In this document: positions 20,293-56,317 of the stretch, piece after piece
Position numbering within the stretch: position 1 is the first letter of the stretch
How the letters are laid out: each line of letters starts with the position of its first letter
Assembly (NCBI GenBank): GCA_030704615.1
Contig: CM060731.1
Span: 49,972,001-50,036,000, forward strand
Length of the DNA: 64,000 nt
Origin: Takakia lepidozioides
Taxonomy: Eukaryota; Plantae; Bryophyta
Direction of reading: 5' to 3'
The notes under the pieces: model-generated
What the model saw: only the letters and a program-made list of their open reading frames with translations
Told to the model about the DNA's origin: nothing
The model's database searches: none
Program-made: the position numbers and the translations under genes

Positions 20293-20501
20293 GAACAGAA
20301 TACAAATAGCGCGAGCGTACGTTGCCGCATCATTTATTTTTTAAGGTATTTTGTAACCTTGTATTACCGGCCCTTTGGTTACCTGTGATTCGTATACACT
20401 GTGGGTGTCACTTTGCGGCAGCAGCCCGGTTTCGTCGTCGAAATGCGTTTCTTCAACCAATACAGCGGGAAATCCGTATCTACAATTCTTTTTTAAAACA
20501 T

Positions 20502-32020: not shown

Positions 32021-33007
32021 TGTCGAGCGGCTTTTATTCACCCATCCCTTTGCTATCCGAGGTGGAAACTCCAAGATAGAATAGTTGGATATCTCTAAGC
32101 ACTCAGCCCACTCAGAACAATCAGTCATGACCTGCAGCTAGTGAATCATGGTTGTGCTTCATATTTGTATTCATTCCTGCCTTCATGTTATCAATTTACC
32201 TTACCGTGTAACCTGATGCATCAGATTGCTTCAGTATCTACTAAGTTCCAATTAATCATGCATTCATTCCACAGCTTCTCTCGTGTCTCTCTACATAATA
32301 TGTTTGTATCGATTCAGTATCGGATTAAAATTAATCATGTATCATGCCTAAGCCATGGTGTCTCTATTCTACCCTACTGTATAATTTTACAGCTTGCATG
32401 AACTAAGCCTCATTCAAGTCATCATCTCCTCTTCACTGTTTCCGCTCTCCGTTACGTCTCCTCCTCTCCTGAAGAAGTCGCCCTCCTCAAGAAGTGATCC
32501 CCTTCTTGTTGCCGCTCTGCCTAATCTACCCGCAAGCTGTTCTAACCACCTAACTAACTAACCGTCACCCCTGAAGTAACACGTTCCCTCTGCAGATGTC
32601 AATCCCACACAGTCGTTCCCTGTCAATGATAACTGTTCCCCATGTGTCAAGCTGTGCCGAGCTGTGACTGGCTGTGTAAAGCTGTGTCGGGCTGTGACTG
32701 GCTGTGCGAAGCTGTGTCGGGCTGTGTTACACTGTGTCTGGCTGTCATAGACTGTGACGGGCTGTGTAAAGCTGTGTCGGGCTGTGACTGGCTGTGTGAA
32801 GCTGTGTGAAGCTGTGTCGGGCTGTGTCAGACTGTGTCTGGCTGTGATAGAGTGTGACGGGCTGTGTAAAGCTGTGTCGAGCTGTGTAACCCCCCTAAAG
32901 CTTGCTCCTGCCACCCCTAAGGCTCCTGTTGGTCTCAGTCTGCGCAAAAATTAAAGATACCCCACAGAACCTATAAAAGCGTCTAAGTCTCAAGCAGCCC
33001 TCTAACA
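32021..33007 (-). repeat. Gypsy 5' LTR (987 bp)
   Basis: Near-identical to the 3' LTR but with more minisatellite units. Confidence 0.95.
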
Positions 33008-33012
33008 AACAT

Positions 33013-36000
33013 CTTCGTTGGTTTTGTAGCATGCAGGATTGCACATGTGCCGATTGCATACATTCGGTAGTCTCGATACGTCGCGCGCAAAGTCGGCATG
33101 AAATGTTTTAGAGTGAACATCGGGAGGTCTGGTAGTGCACGGATGGATTTGGTGTTTCCATTGTTTTCTTTGATGTCGGGGTCAATGGTAGTGGTTGGAA
33201 TGTTTTCGTCAACTGGTATTTCGGATTGAATTGGATCAAGTCGCGTACTATGATGCTGTCCAAATATGCCAACATTTTTCGTTTGAATTTTTCGTTGTCT
33301 TTCAGTTTTTGTACGAGTTCGTTTGGATTTGGGGCATTTTCTAGCCACAACAATGTGTGTATGTGAAGTGAACCATTTTTCGCCGTTTCGTAACAACCAT
33401 AATATGCGTTAATGTTCCCAAGTACTCCCGTATTTGTTGTGGAAGTTTTGGCGGTCTCTCTGACACGTAGTAGGTATTTAAAAACTGCGTTCACGATGAT
33501 GTGTACAAATTTAGCTTGAGATCTCGGATTCGTAGTGACAATTGCACGTCTTTCATTGAGGTCCGGGAGGTTTTCGTCGAAAAAAATGTCAAGATTGATG
33601 TCGTTCCCACTTAGCAGGGACACCAGAGGATGATGTACAAATGCTGGATTTAAAGTGAAGAATAAGCTTGGTGTTTCCAACTATTGCATCATGCTGAATA
33701 TTTTGTTTCTCTGTATTGCGCGGCTGCTTCCAGATGCCATCACTTGTTTACTTGATACTTTCAAGTGACGTAATAACTTTTGAATTTCTGGTTTGTTGTT
33801 TATTGTTGTCACGTCCTCTATTATGTCGTTGAAGTCTTCTGAACGGATTTGTTGAGGAGTTGTGCTTCACTTTGAAATGATGATCTCGACACTGTCAGTT
33901 TTGCGCCCAGACATATTTGTCTATGTTGCATCAGATTGAACATGAAGAATGGAAATAAGTGGTGTTTCGAAAAGTCGTGATGGATATCAGTGAGACTCAT
34001 CAAATATTCAACGTGGGCCTCTAAAGTTACTTTGATTGGACGGTTTTTCATTTCGGTTACGCCGATTCCAAACGGAAATAACGTTGAAAACATGCATGCG
34101 ATTAGTTTAGGGTTTGCGTATTCGTTGACCATTTCGGTTTCGTGCGTGTATGACAAGTACATGTTTTTGTTGTAGTTGCAATCCATTTAAAGCGCTGGAG
34201 ATTAGGTCGTCATGCTTTATGTCTATTCCGTCAAAATCGATGAGTCCGGAGGTGTCTATGACGGGCTAGATCGTATTGTAGTTTTTGTTGATTGGTGTTT
34301 TTTTGTTGTGCAAATCTGTTATGTTGGTACGATGTTCAGCGTTGGCGAAATCAATGTCAGTGGATTCAAACACCGATCTCAAGATTGATGGTGGAATATC
34401 GTTCTCTGGTAGTCCATCCAATATGTCGTTATCAATTTGAATGTCCTTGTAACCCGTGTGATTTTTTTTCAGCCACGTTAACCAGGTCGTTACTGCAAGT
34501 CTACGTACGTATAGCAAATTACATGTTTTTACGACATTAATGGGTGGATGTGAAGTGCCGACGAAGTGGACGGCGACCATATCGGATAATGAATCTAAGG
34601 GGGTGGCAATTTGTTCAACAATTCGATTGCACGGCCTGGATTTTGAGCAAAACTCACCAAATTTCCTCTCAATGCGCGTTGTCCCTTTCCGCCTTTATTT
34701 ATATATCGTAATTTGAACAACATCACATGACAACGGTATCTTGCTATTAATGCTTCTTTAACCATAGTTAACTTTGGCAAAATGTCGTGAACTTTTCCAA
34801 TCCACAAACCATTGGCGAGTGCAAATTTTGGCATCTTGTTCTTTTTCAAGGTGGAACTGCAGGTTTTGCAAATGAAGATGGTATGTGCAATATTTGATAC
34901 TCCTCGTTTGTCCAATAACAACCCATTTAATTCGTCCAACTGATGTTTTGTGTCATTAATCAATTCTTGAGGAACCTCTTCTAAGAGAACATGTTGTTCA
35001 AAGTGGTTTTCTACTTGTAGGCTTAGCCACTTTTTCATGTATTTTACGATGTCGCTTTGTAGTTCATCGATGTTCCATTTGAACATGTTAGAGGCTGCTA
35101 CGTCTCTGCTGCAAACACAACAATACTGATTAGTGAAAGTTGCATTGCTGATGTATTCGTTGAAGTTGGATAAACAAGACAAGTTGTTCTCCAAACATAT
35201 TTATGGTGGGAACAGATTATTCTTTGGTGTTTTTGCAGGAGCGCAATACATTTGTTGTCGTTTTGTTTTGAGTTTTTCCTTCTCATCATTTTCGTTTGCG
35301 AATATATTTTCGAATTTGTGTAACACATGTTTGATCTTTGATCAATGGATCTTGGTCTTTATGGAATCTGTATTTTGCCCTTCGTTTGGCTTTTGTCTTT
35401 TCTTGATCGGAAGTTAATGGAGATTCGATTTCCGTGGCTTGTTGATTTTGGATCAATGGATATTGGGTTTTTTGAAATGCGTATTTTTCACGTCTTTTGG
35501 CATTTGTCTCTTTCGGATCGGGAGTCGGTTGAGATTCTATTTTTGTGGTTTGTTGTGGTTTTTCAAATCTGTATTTTTCCCTTCGTTTAGTATTTGTTTC
35601 ATCTCGATCTATTGTTATGGTTTGTGGTGGATTTTTTATTCTATAATTTTCCCTTCGTTTAGCATTTGTTTGGTCTGGATCCGGTTCCGTGGTTTGTTGT
35701 GGATTTTCAACTCTATAATTTTCCCTTCGTTTAGCATTTGTTTGGTCTGGATCCGGTTCCGTGGTTTGTTGTGGATTTTCGACTCTATAATTTTCCCTTC
35801 GTTTAGCATTTGTTTGGTCTGGATCCGGTTCCGTGGTTTGTTGTGGATTTTCGACTCTATAATTTTCCCTTCGTTCAGCATTTGTTTGGTCTGGATCTGG
35901 TTCTGTGGTTTGTTGTGGATGTTCAACTCTGTATTTTTGCTTTCGTTTAGCATTTGTTTCGTTTAATTTTTCTTTGTTTAAAGCATATTTTCTCCGTCTC

Positions 36001-36026
36001 TTAGCATTAGCAAGTTGTCTATCCAT
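33013..36026 (-). pseudogene. Helitron RepHel 5' part (repeat-rich N-terminus, DUF6570-like region, Rep/HUH)
   Basis: CCVC...CKTC...PKFALANGLWIG; LFPFGIG; PSLFFTLNP (motif 1); YETAKNGSLHIHTLLW (HUH motif 2); H-C-C then CRYGFP continuing across the gypsy insertion. Confidence 0.88.
35580..35960 (-). repeat. 72-bp coding tandem repeat (TNAKRRENYRVENPQQTTEPDPDQ)n
   Basis: Units start at 35651, 35723, 35795 and 35867, with degenerate flanking copies. Confidence 0.9.
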
Positions 36027-36229
36027 ATTAAACTTACGTTATACACGTAAGTTTTTTTTAATAAATAAATAATATTATTTATGTATACATTGGTATTTTT
36101 TATAGAATTAATAATGACCGTCCATGTAATGGAGATTTAGCTATTTGGAGCGAAATTTACCAATGGAAAGATAGTAAGGTGAAGGAAAATTTCAGGGGAT
36201 AAAAAGAGAGTTTGAGAGTAATAAGAGAG

Positions 36230-37325
36230 TTTGAGTCTCCTGGATGAAAGAGGAAAAATTAAAAAGAAAAGATAATAAAGGTTTTAATCCCGCATTCTCC
36301 CCCATCGGACTGGGCTTGAATCCCCTAGTGATGTTGCAAGATATGGGTGAGAGGAAAAATAAAAATAAAAGATAATAAAGGTTTCAAACCCGTCCGGCTC
36401 TCCCTCCTCGGAGAGAGTTAGAGTGCCTAGATAAAAATAGTTTCAGAACTGTCAGTCTGCCCCACCGGACTTTGAGCATGTGGTCGTATATCGGCGGGCA
36501 AAGATTGGATATTTTCTGCACTTCAGAGGACCACACTTTGGCTTCTTTGAAAGAGGACTTCGGACGCGATCCAGTGAGACAAACTCTAATTTTATTTATA
36601 GAATGGGGTTTCGGTCTCCGGGAGGAAAGAGGAAAATAAAAAGAAAAAGATAATAAAAATTTCAAACCCGGCTGGCTCTCCCTCTTCGGAGAGAGTTTGA
36701 GTGCCCAGATAAAAATAGTTTCAGAACCGCCATTCTTCCCCACGGGACTGGGCTCGAATCCCCTAGTGAAGTTGCAAGATATTTGAGAGAGGAAAAAAAA
36801 AAAAAAAAAGATAATAAAGGTTTCAAATTCCCCCGGCTCTGCCTCTTCGGAGAGAGTTCGAGTCCCCAGATAAAAATTGTTTCAAATCCGCCATTCTCCC
36901 CCACCGGACTGGGCTCGAATCCCCTAGTGATGCTGCAAGATAGGGTCGGTGCAAGGTGGATTGTTCTATTAATGTAACAAGCCTTTGAAGGACTTTGAGC
37001 CTACGCTAGTATATCGGCGGGGAAAGATTGGATATTTTCTGCACCTCAAAGGATATGGGAGAGATGATAAATAAAAAGGAAAAAAAAAATAAAGGTTTCA
37101 AACCCCCCCGGCTCTGCCTCTTTGGAGAGAGTTCGAGCCCCCAGATAAAAGTATTTCAGAACCGCCATTCTCCCCCACATGACTGGGCTCGAATCCCCTA
37201 GTGATGCTGCAAGATTTGGTCGGTGCAAGGTGGATTGTTATATTAATCTTACAAGTCTTGGAAGGACTTTGAGCCTGCGATGGTATATCGGCTAGCAAAG
37301 ATTGGATGATTTGTTGCAGCCTGAA
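36230..37325. repeat. Degenerate tandem repeats (~180-280 bp units) upstream of the Helitron ORF
   Basis: Recurring gataataaaggtttcaaacccg...ggagagagtt...ctgggctcgaatcccctagtgatg..gcaagat blocks. Confidence 0.85.
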
Positions 37326-39569: not shown

Positions 39570-42280
39570 GTTTGTTTGTTTTGTTTTGTTTTGTTTTGTT
39601 GTGTAGCGTTGAGATGTCCCAAGCCATGGGGCCCAGCCCTGGTGCTTGGTACCATTGGAAAGCCCTCGCTGAGGAAGGTGCACCGACTTGGTCTCATGAT
39701 TTTTGGACCTACGGTGTGGGAGATGTTGAATTTTGGTCGCTAGAAATTCGCAGGAAAGTGGGCTTTATGATTGGAGCCTCGACAAGAGATCTACCAATAA
39801 TGATTAGATATATACTACTCAAAATCCATGGAAAAAAATCAAATTGGGTCTTGACATGGTATACATACTTGGATCCATAAGAGATTGCACTTGGGCTTAG
39901 ATGACACTAGATGTGCTTGGGCCTCTACATGGGAGATGCACTTGAATACATGAATAGAAGATTGCACTTGGGCTTAGATGGGCCTCAACATAGGAGACAC
40001 ACTTGGATACATACAAAACTGCATTTGGTCTTAGATTTCAATTCTTCACACATCAGCCAATGGCATAAGCTACACTAGAGGTCACACTTGGGCCTCGACA
40101 TAAGAGCAGGAATGCTAGATCGTGAGCCTGGAGGCGAGAGCCCAGCAAGGCTCACGCCATGTCATGTCTTTAAAAAAAAAAAAAAACTGGACTTATTTCC
40201 GCGTGGTGTGCCTATTTCCGTGGAATGAATTTGCATAGCCAGCCATTACAAACTCCATCTTTATCATCCATTGCACCTTTATTATCTCTGAAATGCCTGG
40301 CAAAAAGCTGAAGTTATTAGCCTTTGCGGCACGACAGAGAAGGAGATGGAGCTGCATCACTTGGGCACTTGGGCCAATGACACAGGCTACCCTAGATGTT
40401 GCACTTGGGTCTCAACATAGGAGACGCTCTTGGATACATAGGGGATTGCACTTGGACTTAGCTGATGACACTGGATACTTGGGCCAACGGCACACGCTAC
40501 CCTAGTCAATATGTGAAGTGAGCCGGTTTGTTTGTTTTGTTTTGTTTTGTTTGTTTGTTGTGTAGCGTTGAGATCTCCCAAACCGCGGGGCCCCAACCTT
40601 GGTGCTTGGTACCGTTGGAAAGCCCTCGATGAGGAGGGGTGCACCGACTTGGTCTCATGATTTTTGGACCTGCGGTGTGGGAGATGTGGAATTTCAAGTA
40701 CTTTTAGTCGCCATAAATTCGGGAAAATTAGCAAAGTGGGCTTTCCTCGACAATGATTGGAGCCTCGACATGAGATATATCAATAATGATTGGATATATT
40801 ACTACTCAATAAATTTATGACAAAAATTAAATTGGGCCTTGACATGGGAAACGAACTTGGATACATAAAAGATTGCAAACACGGAATTTCAAGTGCTTTT
40901 GGTCGTTGGAAATTCGTGAAAAATAGCAAAGTGGGCTTTCCTGCAACAATGATTGGCCCTTCATTTGTCTTTTGTGCATGTGGACGTAAATGTCAATTGG
41001 TTTTTTAAAAAAAAAATTACGTTCACAATATTGTTTGTAGTGTCATTGAGATCTCCCAAACCGCAGGGCCTTTGGCTACGATTTTAGTACCGTTGGAAAG
41101 CCCTCGATGAGGAGGGGTGCACCGACTTGGTTCCACAAAATTTGGACCTTGTTATAGGGCTGTCTGGGACTTAGACAATTTTACGAGATCTGTGGGGTAC
41201 CCTTAATTTTGCGCAGACTTACGAATGGTAGACTCAGACCAACAGAGGCCTTAGGGGTGACAAACACAGGCCTTAGGGGTGGTAGGCAGGCTCACACAGT
41301 CAATCACAGGCTTACACAGCCTATTATAGTCAGTCACAGCCTTACACAACCTTACATAGCCTATCACAACCTATCACAGCCCGACACAGCCAGCCACAGC
41401 CCGACACAGCCAGTCACAGCTCGGCACAGTCACAGCCCGACACAGCTTGGCACAGCTCGTCACAGCGTTCACAGGGAACGGTTATCATTGGCAGGGAACG
41501 ATTGTGTGGGAACGACATCTGCAGAAGGAACGTGCATTCTGTCTTGGATGACAGTTAGTTAGTTAGGCGGTTAGAACAACTTGCAGGTAGAATAGACAGA
41601 GTAGCAACATGGAGGGGGTCACTTCTTGGAGCACTTCTTGGACGTCACTTCTGAGATCACTTCTTGGACATCACTTGAGGAGATCAAGCGGAGAGCACGA
41701 TCTTGGAGCACAGGGATGGAGATTACACAGATGAGGAGATACGATGAGATGATGCTTGATTCATGCAAGCTGTAGAAATGCACTGTAGAGCAGATTAGAG
41801 ACACCATGGCTTCGCCCTGATACATGATAGATATTAATATGATTCATATTTCATACTGACATCGTGTAGAGAGATATGAGTGAAGTTGTGGAATGAATGC
41901 TTGAGTAGATGAAACATGGTAGATTGCAGAAGCAATCTGATACTTAATTATAGACAGTAAGGTAACTTGTTAACATGAATGCGAGAAGGAATACAAATAT
42001 GAAGCACCCCCATGATACACTAGTTGTAGGTCATAACTGATTGTTCTGAGAGGGCTGAGTACTTAGAGATTTCCAACTCTTCTATCTTGGAGTTTCCACC
42101 TCGGATAGCTAAGGGATGGGTGAGTAAAAGCCGCTCGACAGACCTACGGGCCGAGACTTGTGGAATTATAAATAATTTTGGTCGTTGAAAACTCAACTAA
42201 ATTACAAAATTAAGTGCTAGAATGACAAAGGAGGTCGCACTTAGGCCTATACATGGAAGTTACACTTGGATACATTCATA
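39570..42280. repeat. Three dispersed/tandem copies of a ~0.5-1 kb repeat unit
   Basis: ttgagat.tccca...ttggaaagccctcg.tgagga.ggtgcaccgacttgg at ~39610, ~40568 and ~41046. The third copy is split by the solo LTR. Confidence 0.8.
41150..42140 (+). mobile_element. Solo LTR related to the 20502-33007 gypsy family
   Basis: TGTTA...CGACA, TSD GACCT (41145-41149, 42141-42145), diverged reverse-complement homology to the gypsy LTRs including the cacagc minisatellite. Confidence 0.93.
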
Positions 42281-45683: not shown

Positions 45684-46097
45684 TCAACCTCGCAACCTCT
45701 GGTAAGACAGAAAGCTTTGTTGTGGAGGCGGGTTCATGATTGGACGGCCACTAGTCCAGGAATCTGGCCCAAAACTCCGAAAGTGGATCTCCCGATACTC
45801 TTGACAGATGGCACAAGGCCAACAAAACAGGTGGATCAGAGAGTCTGGCACTGGACCCCTGGATATGTTGTACTTAGACCGCAGTTTCTTCCGATACCCA
45901 CACGAGTACAAGCATCCTAGTGCAGTGGTCTGCTGGAGTAACCACCATACCAGTGCTGCAGTCAAGCAGGAGGTGTTGCCCTCATCCAAAGCTTCTGCGT
46001 TTCTTCCAAATGCGATGCATGGACAGAGACAAGTTAATAAACATATAGGAACATCGGCACAGCACTCAAAGAGACCAGTGCTCCATATCGGTTGATT
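45684..46097 (-). CDS. PLAC8 / FW2.2-CNR-PCR family Cys-rich protein, exon 2
   Basis: WSTGLFECC...CLLTCLCPCIAFG...YSCGYRKKLRSKYNI...HLFCWPCAICQEYRE; preceded by a CAG acceptor; stop at 45684. Confidence 0.9.
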   Translation of the reverse strand, partial: NQPIWSTGLFECCADVPICLLTCLCPCIAFGRNAEALDEGNTSCLTAALVWWLLQQTTALGCLYSCGYRKKLRSKYNISRGPVPDSLIHLFCWPCAICQEYREIHFRSFGPDSWTSGRPIMNPPPQQSFLSYQRLRG

Positions 46098-46691
46098 CTG
46101 CCAGCAACAACCATATAAAGTCTTCATCAACACAACAGCAATTTGAAGCTCTTCAAGTGTAAGCAAGAATGACCCAACTCCTCAGTTAGTGCAATTCCAC
46201 AAATTGCTTACACTACCTGCAGTGCTCCAGGATTGACACCAACCTAGAAAGAGTCCGCTGTGACAGCCAGCTTACCAGCCTATGTTTCATGGTATCTGTG
46301 CTAGAGCATAAAAACATTCCAGTTAGCCCAGATCAACAAGATTATTTTCAGTCAAGCACTTAGGGTTCTTCTTATCATGTTTTCTTTCTGCTGTTGTTTT
46401 CTGACAAAGTGATAACGAGCCTCCTTAGAGTCAGGAAAAGGAACACAGCAATCAGATTCTAAGGAAAACAACTGCCCTAATGTACCGCCCCCCCAATCGA
46501 TTACTTTGATTGAAAGATAAGCAAGCGCATATTGGAAACAATTACTCCTCAAAATGCCTCTATTCCTCTCCACTCTGAAACTTAAGCCTGAAGGCTACCA
46601 AGAGTTCTCGAGACAAACGACATCCCATGAATTATAATGTAAAGTCAAATCAAAGCTGCTAGCGATTTACCCTCCAGATAAATTACTGTAC

Positions 46692-47432: not shown

Positions 47433-48496
47433 CACCGGGACGGTTGCATCCCTCATCGTCCAGCTGGACGGTATAGGAGATCACACGTGTCAGTCTGCTG
47501 TCCCATGGTAGGCCCGGCCCAGATATGGGGTAGCTACCCAGGTTCCCGTTTTCTGGGAGTACAAAAGGGACGTCCGGGAGACCGACAGTAACGGCCGGGA
47601 GTCGCAGTCAGCAAATGCCTTTGCAGTAAGTAATTTAGGTTTTGGAAAAGTGCGGGACTGAGTCAACCCAGCCTGTGGGGGGCCGGAGTCGCAAGTTCCC
47701 TTTTTTGTCATTTCTGCATAGGCCATTCTTTTATTGGCCATTTATCGCCAAATTGCGACCTCTAAAAACTAAATGGAATATTCTGTCACAAATTCCCTGT
47801 TTTTTCATGGATGAAATTGCCAAAGTTCTCCAAATAAAAAATAAATTATGGATGAATTCGCCAAATATGGATGATATAAATGGATGAAAGTACAGAGATG
47901 GATGAATATTTTAGTGGATGAACAGGATGTAAGGCTATTTTTTGCAAGAAGCCAAATCAAGCCCAATCTGACCATGGAAACAGCCTCGAAATGCGCAAAA
48001 ATATAGATCATTAGCATACACAATAACAGAGAAACATTGAATTCAAATACTTTGGGTGGAAGTCTATTATTTAATCAATTGCCACGAATTAGATAATGTC
48101 ACATATGATGAGTTGGATCTTGCCACGTATCAATCTTGGACGATTGGTCATAGTTAGATATTACATTTCTTTTTTCTTTTTTAAAGAAAGGGGTCGTAAC
48201 AAGTGTTGGGCTGGTTGTCGTGCGCATACGTAACGCAACACAACTACATCGCTGTCCAAACCACACCACACATATATGCACAATAAAGTAGTCTACCACA
48301 ATCGCCCCCATAGCTGGTGGTTAGGTCCCTCTACCTCCAGATAGCTACAAGATGTAATAGCCGGGTACAAGTGTAGCCCCATCGTTAGTCGCCGTCATGC
48401 AATCTGTGAACTTGAGCCAAGATCTCGTGTGTTCAAGGTCTCCTAGTAGCTGGGCCTTGCGTTTCTTGTTAGCCTTCCATGGTGTATCCACTTTCA

Positions 48497-48799
48497 CTAT
48501 CCAATGCAATGTGGACATAACCAATCCCCATCCGGAACCATCTCAAGAGGTGGTGTCAAGCATCCCATATGCCAACCTCGAGAACATCGATCACACACCA
48601 GCATGGTGGCTGCCCCTCTAGCAGACCCACACAACATGCACCTCAAACCTGCAGATACCACTGCCAGGTTTGGGTCAATCCTGCCATAAACATTCGGAAG
48701 GTGACATGGCGCACAATTACGCACATGGTCCTTCCAAGTTATGTCATCCCGACCCTCCAAGACCAAGACGCCTGAGGGCAAGACCTCTCGAACCCTCAA
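48497..48799 (-). pseudogene. Integrase C-terminal region with PHD finger
   Basis: CMLC-x11-CDRC-x4-H-x2-C...PDGDWLCPHC: C4HC3 PHD consensus. Separated from the integrase by one in-frame stop. Confidence 0.9.
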
Positions 48800-48808
48800 A
48801 ATAACACG

Positions 48809-51479
48809 TCATGCAGTCACATCCAGGGTCGTAGGAGCAGTCTGCTGCAGATAGACATAGTCACCAGGGTTGAATCTCCGAACCCCAGGACGATAGCCCC
48901 CACCACGTATGGTAGCATACGTCAACGTATCACGGTGTTGGGCAATGGCAAGGTTCTCGAAAGCCATGGGCATGACTCTCTTGAACAACTCTGCACGCTG
49001 CTCACATGCACGTGCCCACACGTCCGGATCGTCAATGTTAAGAACTGTAGCAGCTTTTCTGCGAATGGATGTAGGCAAATCCGGCTCTCGGCCAAAGAGA
49101 AGAAAGTATGGTGAGAAGGAAGCAAGTGATGCTTGCTTGCTGAACCTGTAGCCCATGGCTAACCAGGGTAACTGAAGGTCCCAATCTCTTAGGTGTCCCT
49201 TTTGCAAGCCATACTTGCGCAAACCCCTCTTTACTGTCTGAACAACTCTCTCTGCCAAGCCATCGGCCTCAGGATGATCCCGAGAAGTGGTGCGGTGGTC
49301 TATCAAGGCATTGTCACAGAAACTCCCCCAAGAACTCTCTCCCTTGGTCCGTGAGTACCTCAGCTGGAGCACCGAATCGGCTAAACACACAATCCAAGAA
49401 TGCATATGCAACTCCCTCACTAGCCTTATCAGGCAATGGAACCAATTCAATCCACTTGGAGAAGTGCTCCACCATCACCAACACGTACTTGTTGTGGCGC
49501 ATGGTCAATGGCAACGGCCCTGCGAAGTCAAGACTCCACCTGTAGCCCAATCCCATGATCGGAAGAGGGTGCAATTGTGGAGTAGGGGCGTTGAATGAAG
49601 CACGCACCCTGTCACACACCATGCACCTAGCCACAAATTGTTGCACCTCTATGTGCATACCACGCCACCAATACTGCCCCTGCAGTAGACTATGAGTGCG
49701 TCGCATCCCAAAATGCCCCAACTCCTCATGGGCATGCCGCACTAACCGTGCCCGCTGTGTTGGGTGAGGCACAATCCTCATTCGACCATCCTCCCACACT
49801 CGGAGCAGGTGTGTCCCCTCCCACTTGAACCTCTTGGCTCGTTGTAGGATCCGATCTCTCTCATTGGCAGTCACAGTGGCTGCAGTGTCTCCAGTGCGGA
49901 GGTAGTCCAACACAACTGAATCCTCATGTATATCTTTGGCGCCACCTTGTTCATTGCTGGCCTCAGGGTCCTCAGACACTTGATCTACAGTCATCCCTGT
50001 TGCAGGTCCAACCTGGCCTTCCGCTGCCAAGATACACAGAAATGCAGATGCATGCCATCCAGGCACCATCTCCTCGTCCGTCTCACCATGCCACCGAGCT
50101 CCAGTATCATCCTGCTGGCTCGTGCATGGATTGCGACTCAACCCATTTGCATTGCGATTGACCAAACCCGGTCGATGCACCACTTGAAAGTCATACTCTT
50201 GAAGGATGAGTGCCCACCGTGCAAGCTTCCCCGTAAGCTTGTCTGACTCCATCAACCACTTGAGTGGTTGGTGATCCGTGACAAGGGTGAAGAGATTGCC
50301 GTATAGATAACACCTGAAGTGTGCCACGGCCCACACTGCAGCTAAGCATTCTCCCTCATATGAGCTATACTTAGACTCTGCAGCATTGTTCGAGCGGCTA
50401 GCATAAGCCACTACGAACTCTCTTCCCTCATCATCCACCTGTGTGAGCACCGCTCCAAGCCCCAGCATGCTCCAATCTGTATGTAGCTGAAAAGGACGCC
50501 CCCTAATAGGTCGTCTCAAGATGGGCGTCGAGGTCAACCTCGCCTTGAGCTCTTGAAAAGCTTGTTCTTGCTCATCTTCCCACTGCCACTCCTGGTCCAC
50601 CTTGGTCAGCTTGGTTAGAGCCTTTGCAATGGCACTAAATCCCTTAACAAACCGTCTGTAATAGTTTGCTAACCCCATGAAAGCTCGAACTCGGCTCACA
50701 TCCGTGGGGCGTGGAACCTGTGCAATGGACTCTACCTTAGTCTGCTGTATCCCCAATCCTCCAGGATATATCATGTGACCCAGATACTCAATTTGGTTGT
50801 GGAAAAACTTGCACTTGCCCGGATGTAACTTCAATCCGTGCGTCCTCAAGCGCTCAAATACCCCTTGAGGGTGTCTCTCATGCTCCTCCACCGTAGCACT
50901 AAAGATGATGATGTCATCTATATAGCACCGAGCAAACTCCACCCCTGCTAGAATCCTGTCCATGACTCTTTGAAACTCAGCGGGAGCGTTTTTAAGCCCA
51001 AATGGTAAGAACCGCCACTGGTATAGGCAATCCTTCCCGTGCTCATTGATCCCCCAGAATGCCGTCTTTTGCTTATCCGCCTCTTTGATCGGCAACTGGT
51101 GATATCCGGATCGTAAATCCAAAGTGCTAAAGACCTTGGCATGCCCAATGGCATCAAAGATCTCCTCTGGTGTGGGCATGGCATACCTATCGGACTTGGT
51201 CTGACGATTTACAGGCCGGTAATCACCGCACATACGTCTCTCCGTCCAATTGCCATAGACATCCTTCTTGGCTGGCATCACTGTGGCTGAAGCATACTCT
51301 CCACCAGAGAGCTCCACCAAACCTGCCTCCCAGAGATCTTGAGTCCTCATCTGAATCAAAGACCTCTCCATGTCACTGTATCTATAGGGTCTCCGAAAGA
51401 TTGGCGTGTCAGTGGCCAACTCAATACGGATCTTTGACCCTTCAGTGCTCCCAAGTCCTTCAAACTGAAGGCAAAGCAA
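48809..51479 (-). pseudogene. Gypsy RT, RNase H and integrase (one frameshift near 49315)
   Basis: RMCGDYRPVN, LDLRSGYHQ, LPFGLKNAPAEFQR, YIDD, HTDWS, YSSYEGECLA, TDHQPL, HEELGHFG..CMVC, WSLDFAGP, TDQGREF, HPEADGLAER. Confidence 0.95.
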
Positions 51480-51622
51480 TTCCTGTAAGCCCTCAGGAAC
51501 CGCCGTATACGTCGTCTCTCTCCTCCGGTGACAATGGGTCCAATGTCAGGCTCCCAATTGTCCTCTGTAACTGCAACCTTAAGTCCAGTGGGCTTAGAGG
51601 TAGAGGACGCGTCCCGTGGTTG

Positions 51623-53620
51623 CTATGCTGCAACCTCTTGAGCAGTACTCCCTTCCTGCTCAGTCAATGACAAGGCCTCATCCTGCCCCATCATCTCATC
51701 ATTGAGAACCTCCTCAACCCGAGAAGAATCCCCAACCTCATCCATCACAGCGGCCTTGGCTGCCAACTCCCTCTGAACCTCGAGCACCTCCCACGTGTGC
51801 CATGGATGTCTATACCCCGTGGTCCTCACCGGCTCGCCCCCACTCGCTGCCTGTACCGTCTCGGTAGGCAGAGAGACCGTCAAGGGAAGTGCACTCCGCA
51901 CTCTACGTTGCTCAGCCATAGCCAAGCTGATAATCCAGGTCAAGCAATTGAGATCCATTGCTTGCCCCAACACCTGACGACGTGATGCCTCAGAAAGAGA
52001 AGGCACCGCCGTGGTCCCAATGGAAAACCCCATAGCCCGCTCTCGCTCGTCGGCATTGGGCTCCACTAACTGCTGCAACTGAGCATCCCACAGGAGGCCA
52101 GGTCCACCATCCCGAAAAGCATGGGATCCTGGGAAGCTGAGCAGTGTAGGTAATGTTGTTCGTGGTTGACCCACCCTGTTGACCACTGCCAAAGGCGAAC
52201 GGTCGTGGTGTCTCACACGTTGAGACTGCCTCCCTGTGTCCAAAATGCTATCCACTGTGAGGTGTGCTGGCCGCTCCACCCCATCAAATGCACGCTTGAG
52301 CAGTGCGGGTGGCATCAAGTTAGTCCACCATAGCCGTGGACGATGAGCCCGTGACCCCACTGCAGCTGCATCCAGCAACACTGCTGACCCAAGCCACGAC
52401 CGGACTTGATGCACACTGGCCATTACCCTGGCCCGAGAATCACCCATCAGTGGCACATTCTCCAAGATGTATGTGGGAGATACAGCTTGATGAAGCTGCA
52501 AGTAGCGCAAAATCCGCACCATCTCCCAAAACAGACCCGTCCTCGAGTCCCGCAATCCATTGCCATGCCCGGCTGATGAATACCCTTGGCAGGGCCAACC
52601 TGCCACTACCATATCAATGGAGCCAACCTGCACCCCCAGCAACGCAATGTCTGCTGGCAAGGCTTGCTGATATCCACGAACTGCAGACACCGGCAACAAC
52701 TCAGGGTACTGCCGCACCATCTGAGCAACATGGCGCAGTGAGACGCGTCGTGCAGTCTCATCCCTCTCCATATACAGGTAACGTCGAACTCGTACACCTG
52801 CCTGCAGCACTGCAGCCAATCCAGTGCTGATCCCGCCAAACAAGTCCAGAAGGCATATGCCTTCATCCGGGCACTGCCACACAAGAGGTGTGGTGTCCAA
52901 TGGCGACAACTGAGGGGGTCCTGGTGCAATCACCGCACTCTCCTCCTCTCTTGACGGTACAAAAGCGTCCACCCAAGCTTGTTGCACCCGTCTATCAGCA
53001 GCCTGCTGCAAATCCTTGCTCGTACCCCACAATGGAGTGTGAGCAACCATGGCAGGCAACTCCGCCGTACCATGCATGTCATCCTGCTCTGCTGGAGGTG
53101 GCACATCCTTTGCATGGGCATTGCCTTCCAGCAACTCTCCAGGCCAACTAACTGCAGCTGTAAAGGCGGTTAGTGTTGGCATCTTGCCCCGCTGGGCAAC
53201 CGCAATATCCCCAATGAATGTCACAGGGAGCTGTGCACGGCGACCATCCCCTGACTGCCATCCAGGCCTGTAGGATGCTGACTCCTCCCAAAAGTCCAGG
53301 GTAAAGCCCATGGGGTATAACACTGCCCCACCAACGAGAACATCGTAAGAGACCGCGTCTGTCACAATGGCCTTGGCTCGCATCACTGAGCCATCGATAG
53401 GATGATCCGGCTGCAGTCTAATGGCCAACTGATGCCGTGTCATGCCCCGAGCCTGCTCTGATCCTCCCAAAGATGTCTGTATCTGGAAAGGGCAAGGCTC
53501 CATATCCGCCTCCATGAGGCCCAAACCTGCAATAGCAGCTCTGCCCAACATCAGTGGCTGAGCTCCTGAGTCCAACAAGACCCAAAGTGGCCGGTACTTC
53601 TTGCCTGCCGGTCCATTCAA
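51623..53620 (-). CDS. Aspartic protease fused to a DNMT3-like C5-cytosine DNA methyltransferase
   Basis: Protease VLLDSGA (~53570). MTase ~52858-51925: motif I LDLFGGISTG, II YMERD, IV AGWPCQGYS, VI ILENV, VIII AHRPRLWWTN, IX ERERAMGF, X RRQVLGQAM. One uninterrupted 665-aa frame. Confidence 0.92.
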   Translation of the reverse strand: MNGPAGKKYRPLWVLLDSGAQPLMLGRAAIAGLGLMEADMEPCPFQIQTSLGGSEQARGMTRHQLAIRLQPDHPIDGSVMRAKAIVTDAVSYDVLVGGAVLYPMGFTLDFWEESASYRPGWQSGDGRRAQLPVTFIGDIAVAQRGKMPTLTAFTAAVSWPGELLEGNAHAKDVPPPAEQDDMHGTAELPAMVAHTPLWGTSKDLQQAADRRVQQAWVDAFVPSREEESAVIAPGPPQLSPLDTTPLVWQCPDEGICLLDLFGGISTGLAAVLQAGVRVRRYLYMERDETARRVSLRHVAQMVRQYPELLPVSAVRGYQQALPADIALLGVQVGSIDMVVAGWPCQGYSSAGHGNGLRDSRTGLFWEMVRILRYLQLHQAVSPTYILENVPLMGDSRARVMASVHQVRSWLGSAVLLDAAAVGSRAHRPRLWWTNLMPPALLKRAFDGVERPAHLTVDSILDTGRQSQRVRHHDRSPLAVVNRVGQPRTTLPTLLSFPGSHAFRDGGPGLLWDAQLQQLVEPNADERERAMGFSIGTTAVPSLSEASRRQVLGQAMDLNCLTWIISLAMAEQRRVRSALPLTVSLPTETVQAASGGEPVRTTGYRHPWHTWEVLEVQRELAAKAAVMDEVGDSSRVEEVLNDEMMGQDEALSLTEQEGSTAQEVAA

Positions 53621-53757
53621 AGTGAAAATGCCTCCCTAGTTGTCTAACAAGAGAACTCCAGGTGTCACCATGGCGCGCTCAAAGGCTGGCCTAGCTGACA
53701 GCTCCGTCAACCTGGCAGCTGCAGCTTGCCATGGCGCAGCCGTGGCAGTCTTGACCC

Positions 53758-55797
53758 TCAAATCCGAGGATCCTCTGCCACTACACTTTCCACTAACTTC
53801 GCAGAAGATGAAGTGACATCCCCACTCTCACAGAGTGTTGCTGCTAGTCTGAACACTGCAGCTGGTCTCACCCCCGGCGTCGCAATCATTGTTGCCGAGA
53901 ACAGTGGGGCCTGACACACAGAGGTGGCTGCCCCCAACAACACACTGGCTGCACTAGCCTTGGCAGCAGGTGTCAGTGTTGCACGTGTAGCTCTCCCCAA
54001 TGGCATAGAAACCTCCGCCTCAGTAACAGTCGGGCAAGAACTAGGTGCCATGGATGGCGTTGACACTGTCTCCGCCAAGGTGAATGACTGAGGCAGCCTC
54101 GCCTGACGGCTTGCCTCCCCACATTGTGGATCCAACTCCACCTCTGCACCTCGTGGCTCAGGAACTCGTGCTGCTCCTCGAGTCACGGCTGCAGCAGACT
54201 CCACCTGCTCTAGTGGTAGTGCTGCTCCGCACATGAATCCCATGCCTCCCATATCTCCTCCCTCAGGAGCAGGAGGTGGACCATCCCGCCTGGGAGCCGG
54301 TACCGCCTGAGCTATAGCCATGGCAGCGAGCCTCTGCTCTAGCTGCTGAAGCCGATTGGCCATGCCTTGATCAACACCCTGACCTCCGCGTCCTTAGCCA
54401 TGTTGAGCTTGGCCTTGGCCTGCACCTCGTGCCCGACCACCTCGTCCTCTCTGGGCTGGTCCACCTCGCCCCCGGCCACCATTGTTCCCTTGGAACTGGC
54501 CTGGGCGCAACTCAGGATGCAAGTCATAACACTGGGCATCTCCATGCCCATACTTGCCACAATGCCCACACTGCAACTGTGCAGGTTGTGCTTGTGCCGG
54601 CCTTCTGCCATTCTCTGGGCAATCTCTCTTGACATAGGATCCTCCACATGTCCAACATATCACCCCTGGTTGTTGTTGGCCTGCAAAAGACACCACGGGC
54701 CTCTGCACCTGAGGTCCCCTATAAGCTCCATGGAACTTGGGCTGGGCAACCTTGCCCCCCTGACCACGTTGTTGGGCAGTCCCTTGTGCCTGTGGGCTGG
54801 CAGGTGCGCCTCGTGCAGGCATGTCCTTGCCAAATCCAATGGTAACAACTCACTCCTCCACCATGTTGAGCTCAATCCGCTCAACCAGCAGAAACACATC
54901 TGCTTATGTGGGTTGGGCTGCTTGTAACAGGGTTGCATCTCGCACCCTTCTCTTGAGCTCCTTGTCCAGAATTCCATACCAAAACTGGATTGCCTGAGCT
55001 TCAGTAACCCCTTGGGTCACACTTATCAAGCGCCTCATACGAGTGTACGCCTCTCGCAGGCTCTCACTGGGTTTACGCTGGAAGTCTTGCAAACTTCGCA
55101 ATTTCTCAGTCCGTACACCTTGGTAATTCCTCCGCAACTCCTGGAAGAACTCCACCACCGGGCTGAATCTAGGCACATATGTTGTAGTCGTGGGAGGATG
55201 AGTAGTAGCACCTTCTGCAGAAGTACTGGCACCACTTGTTCCACTACTAGTGCTAGTCGTGGGAGGTATTGGTGCTGATGCCGCCACTGGTCGCGTTGTT
55301 CCTCGAGTAATGGAGACGTAGTCAGGTGACCAATACATCCTCCACTCCTCAATTTCTGCTTCATGTCCTCGCCTGAACTCGTGGTAATTGTCCATAGGCG
55401 GGCCTTCCAAATGCTGGAACAGTCCCTTCCACGCCATGAATGGGATGAATAGCTGTGGATTGCGCATCTGCTGCAAATCACACCAGTTGTCAAACTCCTG
55501 GATAAAGTCATCCAACTCGATTGTGCCCACAGCTCCAGAGTACCTACGAGGCCCCTTGGTAGCTCCATACATCTCCTCCATGTCGTCCCACAACAATGGC
55601 GAATGAAACTGAACACCTGTTGATGAAGCCTCCGAGTCTGTGTCTGACTCTACAGTAGTTGAGGGTGGAGGTGAAGGTGGTCTGAACCGAATACCTCGTC
55701 TTGTGAACCCACTCTCACTGTTACTGCCTGTAGCCGTACTCCCCTCAAAACCCTTGGGTAACTCCGTGATGACACTCACAATGTGCACCTCTTCCAC
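53758..55797 (-). pseudogene. Gag of the DNMT-bearing gypsy (frameshifted)
   Basis: YSGAVGTIELDDF, FQRKPSESLREAYTRM, FWYGILDKEL; knuckles CWTCGGSYVKRDC and CGHCGKYGHGDAQC. Confidence 0.8.
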
Positions 55798-56317
55798 GTG
55801 ATACTATAGGGCTCTAGTACTAATTCTAATAGTGACACGGGTGGGCACCTGTTGCAGTTTAAGGGTCAGATTCCAATGGCTCAGGGCACCTGCACCTGCA
55901 TCCACCGCAAGAACTCCTATGGTTGGCTGGTCATCAACCCAGCCTCACCATAGAAGAAACACTGGTGGTCTTGCTGGTCATCACTCCAGTCTCACCACCG
56001 ACAGCATACTCTAGGATTGACCGGTGATCAAATCCGGCCTAATCCCTATGAAAGCAAACGCCCACACAAAACCAACATGGCGCACAGTCAAGCATGCATG
56101 TGTTGGGGGGGATCCAAACGCAAGAAATCAAAACATCAACACCCCCACACCAAAATCCAGCTGCAATGCTGATCCTGCAGAATAGCCCAGCCCAAAACCC
56201 TGGACTGACTGGCCTCCACCAAGAGAGGCTTTGGCAACTACAAGTACAAGGTAATGAAAATAGTACAGAGATGGAGGGGAAGAATAGGAGCCCGACCAAG
56301 CAAGATCTAATCCTGAT

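What the first reader, a model, noticed from the sequence alone, without database searches (positions are those of the whole stretch)
48497..48799. PHD finger on the integrase of the same element: a possible reader plus writer module
Seen: a C4HC3 PHD consensus occupies the position where chromoviruses carry a chromodomain. Established: PHD fingers read the H3 tail (H3K4 state), animal DNMT3 uses a PHD-like ADD domain to couple H3K4me0 to methylation, and PHD-bearing integrases are known from algal gypsy elements such as Chlamydomonas REM1. Inference: the element both chooses its chromatin target and deposits 5mC, a self-contained epigenetic toolkit.
Basis: partly seen in the sequence, partly recalled or inferred. 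Interest (0 to 1): 0.72.

Follow-up and report, generated by a model that had tools for sequence, protein, structure and literature searches.

The report
PHD-tipped integrase of Gypsy-DNMT3 retrotransposon
A dead copy of an abundant plant jumping gene ends its insertion enzyme in a genuine histone-reading PHD finger that would likely steer where new copies land, and it also carries a DNA-methylating domain, a pairing that is the rule in an old, partly described family of green-lineage elements.

Summary
Minus-strand bases 48506-48640 encode a canonical C4HC3 PHD finger (Pfam E 1.9e-11). It lies in frame after the integrase C-terminal barrel of a Ty3/gypsy element ordered gag-PR-DNMT3-like-RT-RH-IN-PHD. 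The finger sits where chromoviruses carry a chromodomain.

This copy is dead. It has one in-frame stop between integrase and PHD, two frameshifts in pol, stops in gag, and no flanking repeats.

The pairing is not special to this element. In a clade of 73 green-lineage pol sequences (support 100), 61 could be scored: 51 carry both domains, 4 keep the PHD without a DNMT, and 6 keep the DNMT without a PHD. The DNMT sits at two different places in Pol. So the domains are old co-residents, with no sign that either depends on the other.

The nearest solved PHD fingers (CHD4, KDM5A/B PHD1, BHC80, BAZ2A/B, UHRF1, AIRE) read H3 tails unmethylated at K4. My best reading is therefore an integrase tether analogous to the chromodomain. 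Direct reader-writer coupling remains an untested inference.

The family is known as Gypsy-DNMT3 (de Mendoza 2018), and PHD-bearing Chlamydomonas Gypsy elements are known (Craig 2022). The scan noted the same pairing on other DNA (e1-9501300).

The parts
48506..48640 (-). PHD finger core (C4HC3), last domain of the Pol frame
   Evidence: Pfam PF00628 E 1.9e-11 over the whole profile. PDB sequence matches reach E 7.5e-15. The AF2 model superposes on solved PHD fingers at 0.6-1.5 A.
48497..48499 (-). Stop codon that ends the Pol/PHD frame
48641..48706 (-). Linker between the SH3-like barrel and the PHD, holding the nearly invariant P-C-H-L motif
   Evidence: In a 30-row alignment of tails, C107 is invariant and P106, H108 and L109 are kept in 90% or more. 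Also seen in the alignment.
48707..48859 (-). Integrase C-terminal SH3-like five-strand barrel, interrupted by the in-frame stop
   Evidence: AF2 strands at residues 56-106 of the 175-residue query that starts at 49024. Aligned with the GDYVY...ILRV... region of relatives.
48809..48811 (-). In-frame TGA between the integrase C-terminal region and the PHD; private to this copy
   Evidence: At base 48811 about 97% of the counted contig depth of DNA run X1 reads another letter (481,412 of 496,983), as does all or nearly all depth of X5, X7 and X9, which gives a sense codon. The nearest relative P0013 has a residue there.
48812..49387 (-). Second half of the integrase core plus the C-terminal region (frame -1)
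   Evidence: tblastn with P0019 residues 2059-2344 gives 52% identity, E 3.5e-89.
49314..49390 (-). Frameshift inside the integrase core (frame -3 to -1)
   Evidence: Overlapping ORFs and tblastn frames. Contigs of X5, X7 and X9 carry 8 further bases behind 49318. In X1 only 0.3% of the counted depth does, and the tool says X1's counts are incomplete.
49599..49763 (-). Integrase zinc-binding domain (H2C2)
   Evidence: PF17921 E 1.9e-15, P0003 residues 595-649
50193..50582 (-). RNase H
   Evidence: PF17917 and PF17919, E 4.6e-36 and 7.1e-33
50769..51239 (-). Reverse transcriptase
   Evidence: PF00078 E 1.4e-31
51425..51625 (-). Frameshift between the DNMT and RT parts of Pol (frame -1 to -3)
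   Evidence: ORF ends and tblastn frames. Behind 51433 one further base is read in all depth of X5, X7 and X9 and in 38% of X1's counted depth.
51866..52864 (-). DNMT3-like C5 cytosine methyltransferase domain; motifs FGG, PCQ, ENV and RxR are kept
   Evidence: PF00145 E 1.1e-12. Best solved matches are DNMT3A 3.4e-11, then DNMT3B, DNMT3C and DRM2. Motifs seen in the alignment.
53396..53635 (-). Aspartic protease (LLDSGA)
   Evidence: Translation. Aligned to the protease part of P0019.
53758..55803 (-). gag region in one frame, broken by in-frame stops near 54906, 54852 and 54396; CCHC knuckle at 54529-54570
   Evidence: Weak Retrotrans_gag match, E 4.9e-4, below the cut-off. Knuckle and stop positions.
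48360..48362 (.). Point beyond which many other copies stop resembling this one (3' side of the element)
   Evidence: Loose ends of X1, X5 and X7 contigs at 48360/48362. No direct repeats flank the element.

Best explanation
The stretch encodes a genuine PHD finger fused in frame to the C-terminus of the integrase of a broken Ty3/gypsy retrotransposon that also carries a DNMT3-like domain; in intact relatives this finger is predicted to dock the integrase on histone H3 tails lacking K4 methylation and would likely steer insertion, as the chromodomain does in chromoviruses.

Shown:
- The domain, its frame and its position.
- The element's order, gag-PR-DNMT-RT-RH-IN-PHD.
- The breaks in this copy.
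- Membership of a large green-lineage clade in which the PHD sits at a fixed distance from the integrase core.
- The nearest solved homologues are readers of the unmodified H3 tail.

Inferred:
- Histone binding and its specificity.
- The effect on target choice.
- That protease processing leaves the PHD on the integrase and releases the DNMT as a separate product in this architecture, so that the two act at different steps and not as one reader-writer enzyme.
For: - **Domain and fold.** Pfam PHD E 1.9e-11. The AF2 model (pLDDT 86.2) shows a barrel plus a PHD. The PHD superposes at 0.6-1.5 A on DPF2/3, ATXR5, BAZ2A/B, UHRF1, BHC80 and CHD5 fingers. Several of these entries are titled as complexes with unmodified H3.
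- **Sequence neighbours.** The best matches among solved structures are CHD4, PHF12, KDM5B and KDM5A PHD1, ATXR5, PHF21A/BHC80, DPF3, BAZ2A/B, UHRF1 and AIRE. Jain 2020 (PMC6979384, passages) reports a preference for H3K4me0 in KDM5A/B PHD1, PHF21A, AIRE, CHD4, CHD5 and DPF2.
- **Position.** The PHD starts 325 residues after the integrase zinc domain, against 316 for the chromodomain of chromovirus P0059. The tail query (P0001, whose finger starts at residue 57) matches 173-184 residues after the integrase-core match in every relative with a hit.
- **Conservation.** The C4HC3 pattern is kept in 62 of 67 tails (61 of 66 relatives, plus the window). It is also kept in 139 of the best 150 cluster representatives of an exhaustive search, which found 400 proteins at E <= 1e-30.
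- **Independence from the DNMT.** The PHD persists in relatives without a DNMT (P0060, P0097, P0103, P0105, P0289). It also persists in Volvocales copies whose DNMT-like domain has lost the PC and ENV motifs. This fits a job tied to the integrase.
- **Behaviour of a relative.** The PHD-bearing Gypsy-7a_cRei of Chlamydomonas inserts in intergenic DNA 2.6 times more often than chance predicts (PMC9940879, passage).
Against: - No binding or insertion-site data exist for this family.
- In the window's copy and its nearest relative P0013, the loop between the first two cysteine pairs has 0 or 1 acidic residues. 45 of 62 tails have 2 or more. From recall, that loop contacts H3R2/K4 in this PHD class, so specificity in this sub-lineage may differ.
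- The intergenic bias of Gypsy-7a_cRei may reflect selection, as its authors say. I did not show that Gypsy-7a_cRei belongs to this clade.
- Protease cleavage sites are unknown, so separation of the DNMT from IN-PHD is an assumption.
- This copy is dead, so nothing here acts today.
Confidence: 0.6

Rival explanations
1. Reader-writer coupling. The PHD reads H3K4me0 and recruits or activates the element's own DNMT3-like domain, as the ADD domain does in animal DNMT3. The element would then methylate the chromatin it lands in, or itself.
For: Both domains are retained together in 51 of 61 scorable relatives across chlorophytes and streptophytes. In the chlorophyte architecture the DNMT-like domain sits directly before IN-PHD (RT-RH-DNMT-IN-PHD: 39 rows, 56 of 65 scorable representatives), so one mature DNMT-IN-PHD protein is conceivable. 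The DNMT is DNMT3-like. The PHD resembles H3K4me0 readers.
Against: Each domain survives without the other. Four confidently DNMT-less rows keep the PHD. Six DNMT rows lack it, among them a 100%-supported Closterium-like clade. In contrasts where the DNMT differs, the PHD never changes with it. Volvocales copies keep the PHD while the DNMT motifs decay. In this element the two domains lie about 1100 residues apart, with RT, RH and IN between them. The PHD is not ADD-like.
Confidence: 0.15
2. The PHD is a working module but not a target-site tether. It might bind a non-histone host protein, or act after integration to shape local chromatin or escape silencing, as has been suggested for PHD fingers of other transposons.
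For: Craig 2022 and the Penelope-like-element paper (PMC9940879, PMC8557442; passages) cite Kapitonov and Jurka 2003 for a chromatin-remodelling role. The window's sub-lineage lacks the acidic loop. The barrel-plus-PHD pair resembles the Tudor-PHD cassettes of PHF1, MTF2 and UHRF1, though only loosely (rmsd 12-16 A).
Against: The fixed fusion to the integrase C-terminus at the chromodomain position is most simply read as a tether. The closest solved fingers all bind the H3 N-terminus.
Confidence: 0.15
3. Artefact. The finger is a chance cysteine pattern, a captured host exon unrelated to the integrase, or a separate ORF reached by programmed read-through of the TGA.
For: A stop codon separates the PHD frame from the integrase frame in this copy.
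Against: E-values of 1e-11 to 1e-15. The same finger sits at the same offset in every relative with a hit and in 139 of 150 representatives. About 97% of the counted depth of other copies in the same organism has a sense codon at the stop.
Confidence: 0.02

Closest known systems
KnitGypsy-Dnmt3, called 'Gypsy-DNMT3' of streptophytes (de Mendoza et al. 2018, PMC5890265, section 9 read; named so in bioRxiv 10.64898/2026.05.21.726589, passages)
   Same: An LTR Gypsy element with a Dnmt3-related domain inside the Pol frame. The K. nitens protein P0045 is 46% identical over RT-RH-IN and falls in the same 100%-supported clade. The window's DNMT keeps its catalytic motifs.
   Different: The host here is a land plant, probably a bryophyte; the neighbouring PLAC8 gene is 69% identical to a Ceratodon protein. 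The word PHD does not occur in that paper's main text or in the 3 of its 4 supplementary files I could search; MOESM1 was too large. The K. nitens gene model stops before the PHD position. The DIRS-like repeat layout reported there was not found here.
Chromoviruses (Ty3/gypsy with a chromodomain at the integrase C-terminus; Gao et al. 2008 as cited in PMC6673714, passage)
   Same: A histone-tail reader is fused after the integrase SH3-like barrel at the same distance from the zinc domain (316 against 325 residues). The presumed logic is the same: tether the integrase to marked chromatin.
   Different: The chromovirus comparators P0059 and P0086 fall outside the clade. The predicted mark is unmodified H3K4, not H3K9me.
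Gypsy-7a_cRei and other PHD-bearing transposons of Chlamydomonas (Craig et al. 2022, PMC9940879, passages)
   Same: A Gypsy Gag-Pol with a PHD finger. The authors suggest it minimises harmful insertions. A C. reinhardtii protein (P0115) lies in the same clade, with its PHD at the same offset.
   Different: The figure legend lists no DNMT. In P0115 the DNMT-like domain lies between RH and IN and has lost its catalytic motifs. I did not show that P0115 is Gypsy-7a_cRei.
EpiLTRs (bioRxiv 10.64898/2026.05.21.726589, abstract and passages)
   Same: A single LTR element that combines a chromatin reader with a cytosine methyltransferase, described there as an 'epigenetic toolkit'.
   Different: EpiLTRs carry a chromodomain plus an adenine methylase plus a DNMT related to DNMT4. 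Here there is a PHD plus a DNMT3-like domain, no adenine methylase, and a different RT lineage.
DNMT3 ADD domain (animal de novo methyltransferases)
   Same: A DNMT3-type catalytic domain shares a gene with a zinc finger of a kind that reads unmodified H3K4.
   Different: The finger is a plain PHD of the CHD4/KDM5 type, not an ADD. It is attached to the integrase and not to the methyltransferase.

Membership tests
PHD finger (PF00628) | Cys4-His-Cys3 zinc ligands with canonical spacing | tested here: met
   Residues 57-101 of P0001 fit C-x2-C-x11-C-x2-C-x4-H-x2-C-x16-C-x2-C.
PHD finger (PF00628) | Profile score above the curated cut-off | tested here: met
   44.3 bits against 24, E 1.9e-11, whole profile matched.
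PHD finger (PF00628) | PHD fold | tested here: met
   The AF2 model (pLDDT 86.2) superposes on solved PHD fingers at 0.6-1.5 A over 46-53 columns.
PHD finger (PF00628) | Binds a histone tail | not testable with these tools
   Needs a peptide array or ITC.
H3K4me0-reading PHD subclass (CHD4, KDM5 PHD1, BHC80, AIRE, BAZ2A/B) | Closest sequence and structure neighbours belong to this subclass | tested here: met
   Binding preferences are taken from PMC6979384 and from PDB titles.
H3K4me0-reading PHD subclass (CHD4, KDM5 PHD1, BHC80, AIRE, BAZ2A/B) | Acidic residues in the loop after the first Cys pair, which contact H3R2/K4 (recalled, not from a call) | tested here: not met
   The window's loop has 0 acidic and 1 basic residue. 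45 of 62 family tails have 2 or more acidic residues.
Gypsy-DNMT3 (KnitGypsy-Dnmt3) | Ty3/gypsy Pol (PR, RT, RH, DDE integrase) | tested here: met
Gypsy-DNMT3 (KnitGypsy-Dnmt3) | Dnmt3-related domain inside the Pol frame | tested here: met
   PF00145 E 1.1e-12. DNMT3A is the best solved match. The domain is continuous with PR and RT in relatives.
Gypsy-DNMT3 (KnitGypsy-Dnmt3) | Phylogenetic kinship with the K. nitens element | tested here: met
   Same clade, SH-aLRT 100, 73 rows.
Gypsy-DNMT3 (KnitGypsy-Dnmt3) | DIRS-like repeat layout (A-coding-B-A-B) | tested here: inconclusive
   No direct repeats were found around 43-62 kb. The copy diverges from others at about 48360 and may be truncated.
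Chromovirus | Chromodomain at the integrase C-terminus | tested here: not met
   No PF00385 hit; a PHD is there instead.
Chromovirus | RT/IN groups with chromoviruses | tested here: not met
   P0059 and P0086 fall in the outgroup.
EpiLTR | Chromodomain plus adenine methylase plus DNMT | tested here: not met
   Pfam scans of the element's frames found neither a chromodomain nor an adenine methylase.

The most novel reading that the evidence does not exclude
An ancient green-lineage retrotransposon clade rebuilt the logic of DNMT3 (read unmethylated H3K4, then write 5mC) from separate parts. An H3K4me0-type PHD on the integrase picks silent, promoter-free chromatin. A DNMT3-derived domain, moved at least once within Pol, methylates the new copy or its surroundings. 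The element thereby hides itself and spares the host. The pair has been kept since before chlorophytes and streptophytes parted, and it reached very high abundance in a land plant.
Probability: 0.15. Interest if true: 0.75.

Novelty: new member of a known kind. Interest (0 to 1): 0.42.

Why it matters
If the PHD does tether the integrase to H3K4-unmethylated nucleosomes, this would be a second histone-mark targeting device of LTR retrotransposons, beside the chromodomain and independent of it.

The steady company of a DNMT3-like domain would make the family a natural system for asking how transposons use host epigenetic marks.

Two by-products may interest specialists:
- The Gypsy-DNMT3 family reaches well beyond Klebsormidium. 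It occurs in chlorophytes (with the DNMT moved to between RH and IN, and dead in Volvocales) and apparently in a land plant.
- Its integrase normally ends in a PHD finger, which the papers I could search do not mention.

For this locus itself nothing follows, because the copy is a relic.

Tried and rejected
- **Flanking LTRs.** The repeat finder and two self-BLAST runs found none around 43-62 kb.
- **Whole genome.** None is held for this window.
- **REM1 paper.** PMC1291216 is not held, so REM1's PHD position rests on secondary sources only.
- **RNA evidence.** No RNA holder is listed. X7 is only guessed to be RNA. Its contigs cover 48360-49354 and 48506-48808, but this says nothing firm about expression.
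- **Second read-laying run.** It was meant to map the element's ends over 44-62 kb.
- **Earlier scan notes.** Searches by place and by sequence returned nothing.
- **Programmed read-through of the TGA.** Rejected, because other copies have a sense codon there.
- **PHD captured together with the DNMT as a host ADD-MTase unit.** Rejected. No ADD is among the best 60 solved matches, and the two domains sit at opposite ends of Pol.
- **The second gypsy element in the window (24.4-26.6 kb).** It is only about 38% identical to family proteins. It is another family and no second copy.
- **Independent-contrast test of PHD against DNMT.** There are only 3 to 5 contrasts, too few for any significance.
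- **First trait count.** My count of 11 PHD-only rows was too generous. Seven of them have gene models too short upstream to exclude a DNMT, or hold an unexplained insert. The strict count is 4.

Full report
**1. What is at the coordinates**

On the minus strand, 48497-48808 is an open frame of 103 codons that ends in a stop at 48497-48499. Its residues 57-101 (bases 48506-48640) have the full Cys4-His-Cys3 pattern of a PHD finger. They match Pfam PF00628 over the whole profile with E 1.9e-11, 44.3 bits against a cut-off of 24. Against all solved structures they match 91 distinct sequences at E <= 0.01, led by CHD4 at 7.5e-15.

**2. The element around it**

The same strand carries, going downstream:
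- a gag region at 53758-55803, with a weak Retrotrans_gag match and a CCHC knuckle at 54529-54570;
- a protease with LLDSGA;
- a C5 DNA methyltransferase domain at 51866-52864 (PF00145 E 1.1e-12);
- RT, RNase H, the integrase zinc-binding domain and the integrase core;
- the integrase C-terminal region at 48812-49387;
- the PHD.

The methyltransferase is DNMT3-like. Its best solved matches are DNMT3A (3.4e-11), DNMT3B, DNMT3C and then plant DRM2. It keeps the FGG, PCQ, ENV and RxR motifs.

**3. This copy is dead**

- The PHD frame is the same frame as the integrase C-terminal region, but a TGA at 48809-48811 separates them.
- tblastn with intact relatives shows Pol in three pieces, in frames -1, -3 and -1. 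The frame changes lie near 51.43-51.6 kb and near 49.32-49.39 kb.
- The gag frame holds several in-frame stops.
- No direct repeats flank the element.

I laid contigs of four public runs on 48300-53800 at 80% likeness or more. This gave 62,995 records from one DNA run of the same organism, so the family is abundant and has many variants there. A second organism holds a 5-kb contig about 95% alike.

At one base of the TGA codon, about 97% of the counted depth of that run reads another letter, as does all or nearly all depth of the other three runs. This gives a sense codon, so the stop is private to this copy.

At the two frameshift places other copies hold extra bases. Behind 51433, all depth in three runs and 38% of the counted depth in X1 hold one more base. 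Behind 49318, most or all depth in three runs but only 0.3% of the counted depth in X1 holds eight more. The tool warns that X1's counts are incomplete. The 49318 lesion may therefore be shared by many copies of this organism; I cannot tell.

Many contigs stop resembling the window to the left of about 48360. The 3' end of this copy is therefore truncated, or belongs to a variant sub-family.

**4. Position relative to chromoviruses**

- In relatives P0013 and P0148 the PHD starts 325 residues after the end of the integrase zinc-binding domain.
- In the Haematococcus chromovirus P0059 the chromodomain starts 316 residues after it, directly behind the Tf2-type SH3 domain.
- An AlphaFold2 model of the last 175 residues was built from a 30-row alignment (mean pLDDT 86.2). 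It shows a long helix, a five-strand barrel and a PHD fold.

**5. The family**

A search with the RT-RH-IN frame among proteins of 1302 residues or more gave 1745 hits at E <= 1e-20, of which 120 were listed.

I located the RT-RH, integrase, DNMT and PHD-tail regions in these hits by phmmer with the window's own parts. I checked 20 of them with Pfam. I then built a tree from RT-RH plus integrase (82 rows, 558 columns, IQ-TREE quick search).

Thirty-nine of the 120 hits were left out. They are mostly animal proteins that are fusions of several elements. Three green-lineage models were also dropped: P0035 (a fused model), and P0051 and P0084, which lack a usable integrase or RT match.

Seventy-two hits plus the window form one clade (SH-aLRT 100) against nine outgroup rows, which include two chromoviruses. 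Inside the clade there are three architectures:
- **PR-DNMT-RT-RH-IN-PHD.** This includes the window, its sister P0013 (support 97) and others.
- **The same without a PHD.** This is a 100%-supported clade of six rows that includes Closterium, whose tails are present but hold other sequence. Also without a scorable PHD are the K. nitens model P0045, which simply stops before the PHD position, the truncated P0018, and P0011, which has a degenerate PHD-like tail.
- **RT-RH-DNMT-IN-PHD.** This covers 39 rows inside a clade of 47 with support 99, among them Chlamydomonas, Pleodorina, Tetrabaena, Monoraphidium and Haematococcus.

The DNMT-like domains of the two placements score alike against the window's (median 198 and 190 bits). 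Human DNMT3A scores 46 bits. They are therefore one transposon-borne family that changed place within Pol.

In Pleodorina and Chlamydomonas the domain has lost the PC and ENV motifs. This explains why Pfam misses it there.

**6. Is the PHD coupled to the DNMT?**

With strict scoring, 61 rows can be judged. A row counts as DNMT-less only if at least 540 residues precede the RT and the gap from RH to IN is short. The result is:

| State | Rows |
|---|---|
| Both domains | 51 |
| DNMT only | 6 |
| PHD only (P0060, P0097, P0103, P0105) | 4 |
| Neither | 0 |

At least two changes of each trait are needed on the tree. Twelve rows could not be judged. Seven of them show no DNMT hit, but six have too little sequence upstream of the RT to be sure and one (P0120) has an unexplained 591-residue gap between RH and IN. 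My first, looser count of 11 PHD-only rows overstated the case.

In the few independent contrasts where the DNMT differs, the PHD never changes with it, but the contrasts are too few for a test.

The search took only long proteins, which favours DNMT carriers. I therefore ran an exhaustive search with the integrase C-terminal half plus PHD, with no length filter. It found 9040 proteins at E <= 0.001 and 400 at E <= 1e-30. All of the best 150 cluster representatives align through the PHD, apart from a few truncated models. Of these 150, 139 show the full C4HC3 pattern. Of the 65 that reach far enough to judge:
- 56 have the DNMT-like domain between RH and IN;
- 1 has it upstream of RT;
- 1 (P0289) has none;
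- 7 have none between RH and IN and are too short upstream to judge.

The two domains are thus old and frequent co-residents. Each persists without the other, and the PHD is no rarer where the DNMT is gone. It does not exclude cooperation.

**7. What kind of PHD**

The best sequence matches among solved structures are:
- CHD4 PHD1 and PHD2, PHF12, KDM5B and KDM5A PHD1;
- ATXR5, PHF21A/BHC80, MLL3, DPF3 and DPF2;
- BAZ2A/B, UHRF1 and AIRE.

No ING, BPTF or TAF3 finger and no DNMT3 or ATRX ADD is among the best 60.

The fold search agrees. The PHD part of the model superposes at 0.6-1.5 A on DPF2/3, ATXR5, BAZ2A/B (entries titled as complexes with unmodified H3K4 peptide), UHRF1 (unmodified H3 tail), BHC80 and CHD5. 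The barrel-plus-PHD pair as a whole loosely recalls the Tudor-PHD cassettes of PHF1, MTF2 and UHRF1.

Jain et al. 2020 (PMC6979384, passages read) report that KDM5A/B PHD1, PHF21A, AIRE, CHD4, CHD5 and DPF2 prefer H3K4me0. The prediction is therefore a reader of the H3 tail unmethylated at K4.

There is one caveat. The loop after the first cysteine pair is acidic in 45 of 62 family tails, but it has no acidic residue in the window's copy and one in P0013. From recall, not from a call, that loop contacts H3R2/K4 in this class. This sub-lineage may therefore read something else.

**8. Most likely mechanism**

The finger is fixed to the integrase at the chromodomain position throughout the clade. 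It survives loss or decay of the DNMT. I therefore read it as an integrase tether. It would dock the intasome on nucleosomes whose H3 tails lack K4 methylation and so bias insertion away from active promoters.

The DNMT3-like domain lies between protease and RT in this architecture. It would probably be released as a separate product and act on its own (inference).

Direct reader-writer coupling is the main rival. It is more plausible for the chlorophyte architecture, where the DNMT directly precedes IN-PHD.

None of this is tested. The only behavioural hint is the 2.6-fold intergenic excess of new insertions of the PHD-bearing Gypsy-7a_cRei in Chlamydomonas. Its authors say this may also reflect selection (PMC9940879, passage).

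**9. What is known**

- Gypsy elements with a Dnmt3 domain were described in Klebsormidium nitens (de Mendoza 2018; section 9 read).
- A 2026 preprint calls them 'Gypsy-DNMT3' of streptophytes. It also coins 'EpiLTR' for elements that combine a chromodomain, an adenine methylase and a DNMT (passages).
- PHD fingers are called widespread or common accessory domains of retrotransposons (PMC6673714, PMC8557442, PMC9940879; passages).
- I found no text that states that Gypsy-DNMT3 integrases end in a PHD finger, or that chlorophyte PHD-Gypsy elements hide a DNMT-like domain.
- 'PHD' has 0 occurrences in the main text of de Mendoza 2018 and in the 3 of its 4 supplementary files that could be read. 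Its figures and the large file MOESM1 could not be seen, and the REM1 paper is not held.
- The scan itself met the same pairing on other DNA (e1-9501300), as well as the dead DNMT between RH and IN (e1-7561762). My own calls agree with both.

**10. Host**

No genome is held. The PLAC8 gene next to the element (45684-46181) is closest to a Ceratodon purpureus protein (69% identity) and a Diphasiastrum protein (61%). A run labelled plant metagenome holds 44% of the stretch's words. The host is a land plant, probably a bryophyte (inference).

**11. Verdict**

This is a dead member of a known family (Gypsy-DNMT3). The family's PHD-tipped integrase is a regular feature that is little documented, if at all. 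The 'self-contained epigenetic toolkit' remains an attractive but untested idea, and it is weakened by the independence of the two domains.

Noticed in passing
relatives P0115 (Chlamydomonas), P0072 (Pleodorina), P0104, P0061, P0067, P0116 and 33 more: Chlorophyte members carry the DNMT3-like domain between RNase H and integrase, not before RT. In Pleodorina and Chlamydomonas the PC and ENV motifs are lost, and Pfam does not see the domain.
   Followed up: partly
relatives P0120, P0010, P0062: A stretch of about 590 residues between RNase H and integrase has no DNMT homology, and in P0120, the only one of the three scanned, no Pfam match. It might be the adenine-methylase insert that the 2026 preprint places between RT and integrase in a chlorophyte clade. 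This was not tested.
   Followed up: no
relatives P0104 (Monoraphidium), P0067, P0080: Further accessory domains occur in the same clade: a PTM/DIR17-like Tudor after the PHD in P0104, and a G-patch in P0067 (between DNMT and integrase) and P0080 (position not checked).
   Followed up: no
window 48641-48706 (-) and relatives: A nearly invariant P-C-H-L motif lies in the linker between the integrase barrel and the PHD across the clade. Its role is unknown.
   Followed up: no
model m30398d662bd5 (window 48500-49024, -): The integrase barrel plus PHD is matched first by the Tudor-PHD cassettes of PHF1, MTF2 and UHRF1 in the fold search. The rmsd is high, so only the domain order is alike.
   Followed up: no
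window 48300-53800: 62,995 contig records of one DNA run of the same organism lie on this 5.5 kb at 80% likeness or more, so the family is very abundant and diverse there. A second organism holds a contig about 95% alike.
   Followed up: partly
window 20502-21265, 32021-32769, 41287-42140: There is an LTR pair 95% alike around a different gypsy element (RT-RH at 24563-25582, about 38% identical to the family studied). A third, inverted copy of the same LTR, about 80% alike, lies at 41.3-42.1 kb.
   Followed up: partly
window 5954-7599 (+), 17688-20340 (-), 45684-46181 (-): The window also holds a Copia gag-integrase fragment, a Pif1-type helicase (Helitron-like) and a PLAC8-family gene whose best named match is a moss protein.
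   Followed up: partly
window 35300-37320: Tandem and dispersed repeats of about 72-275 bases (families D1-D3).
   Followed up: no
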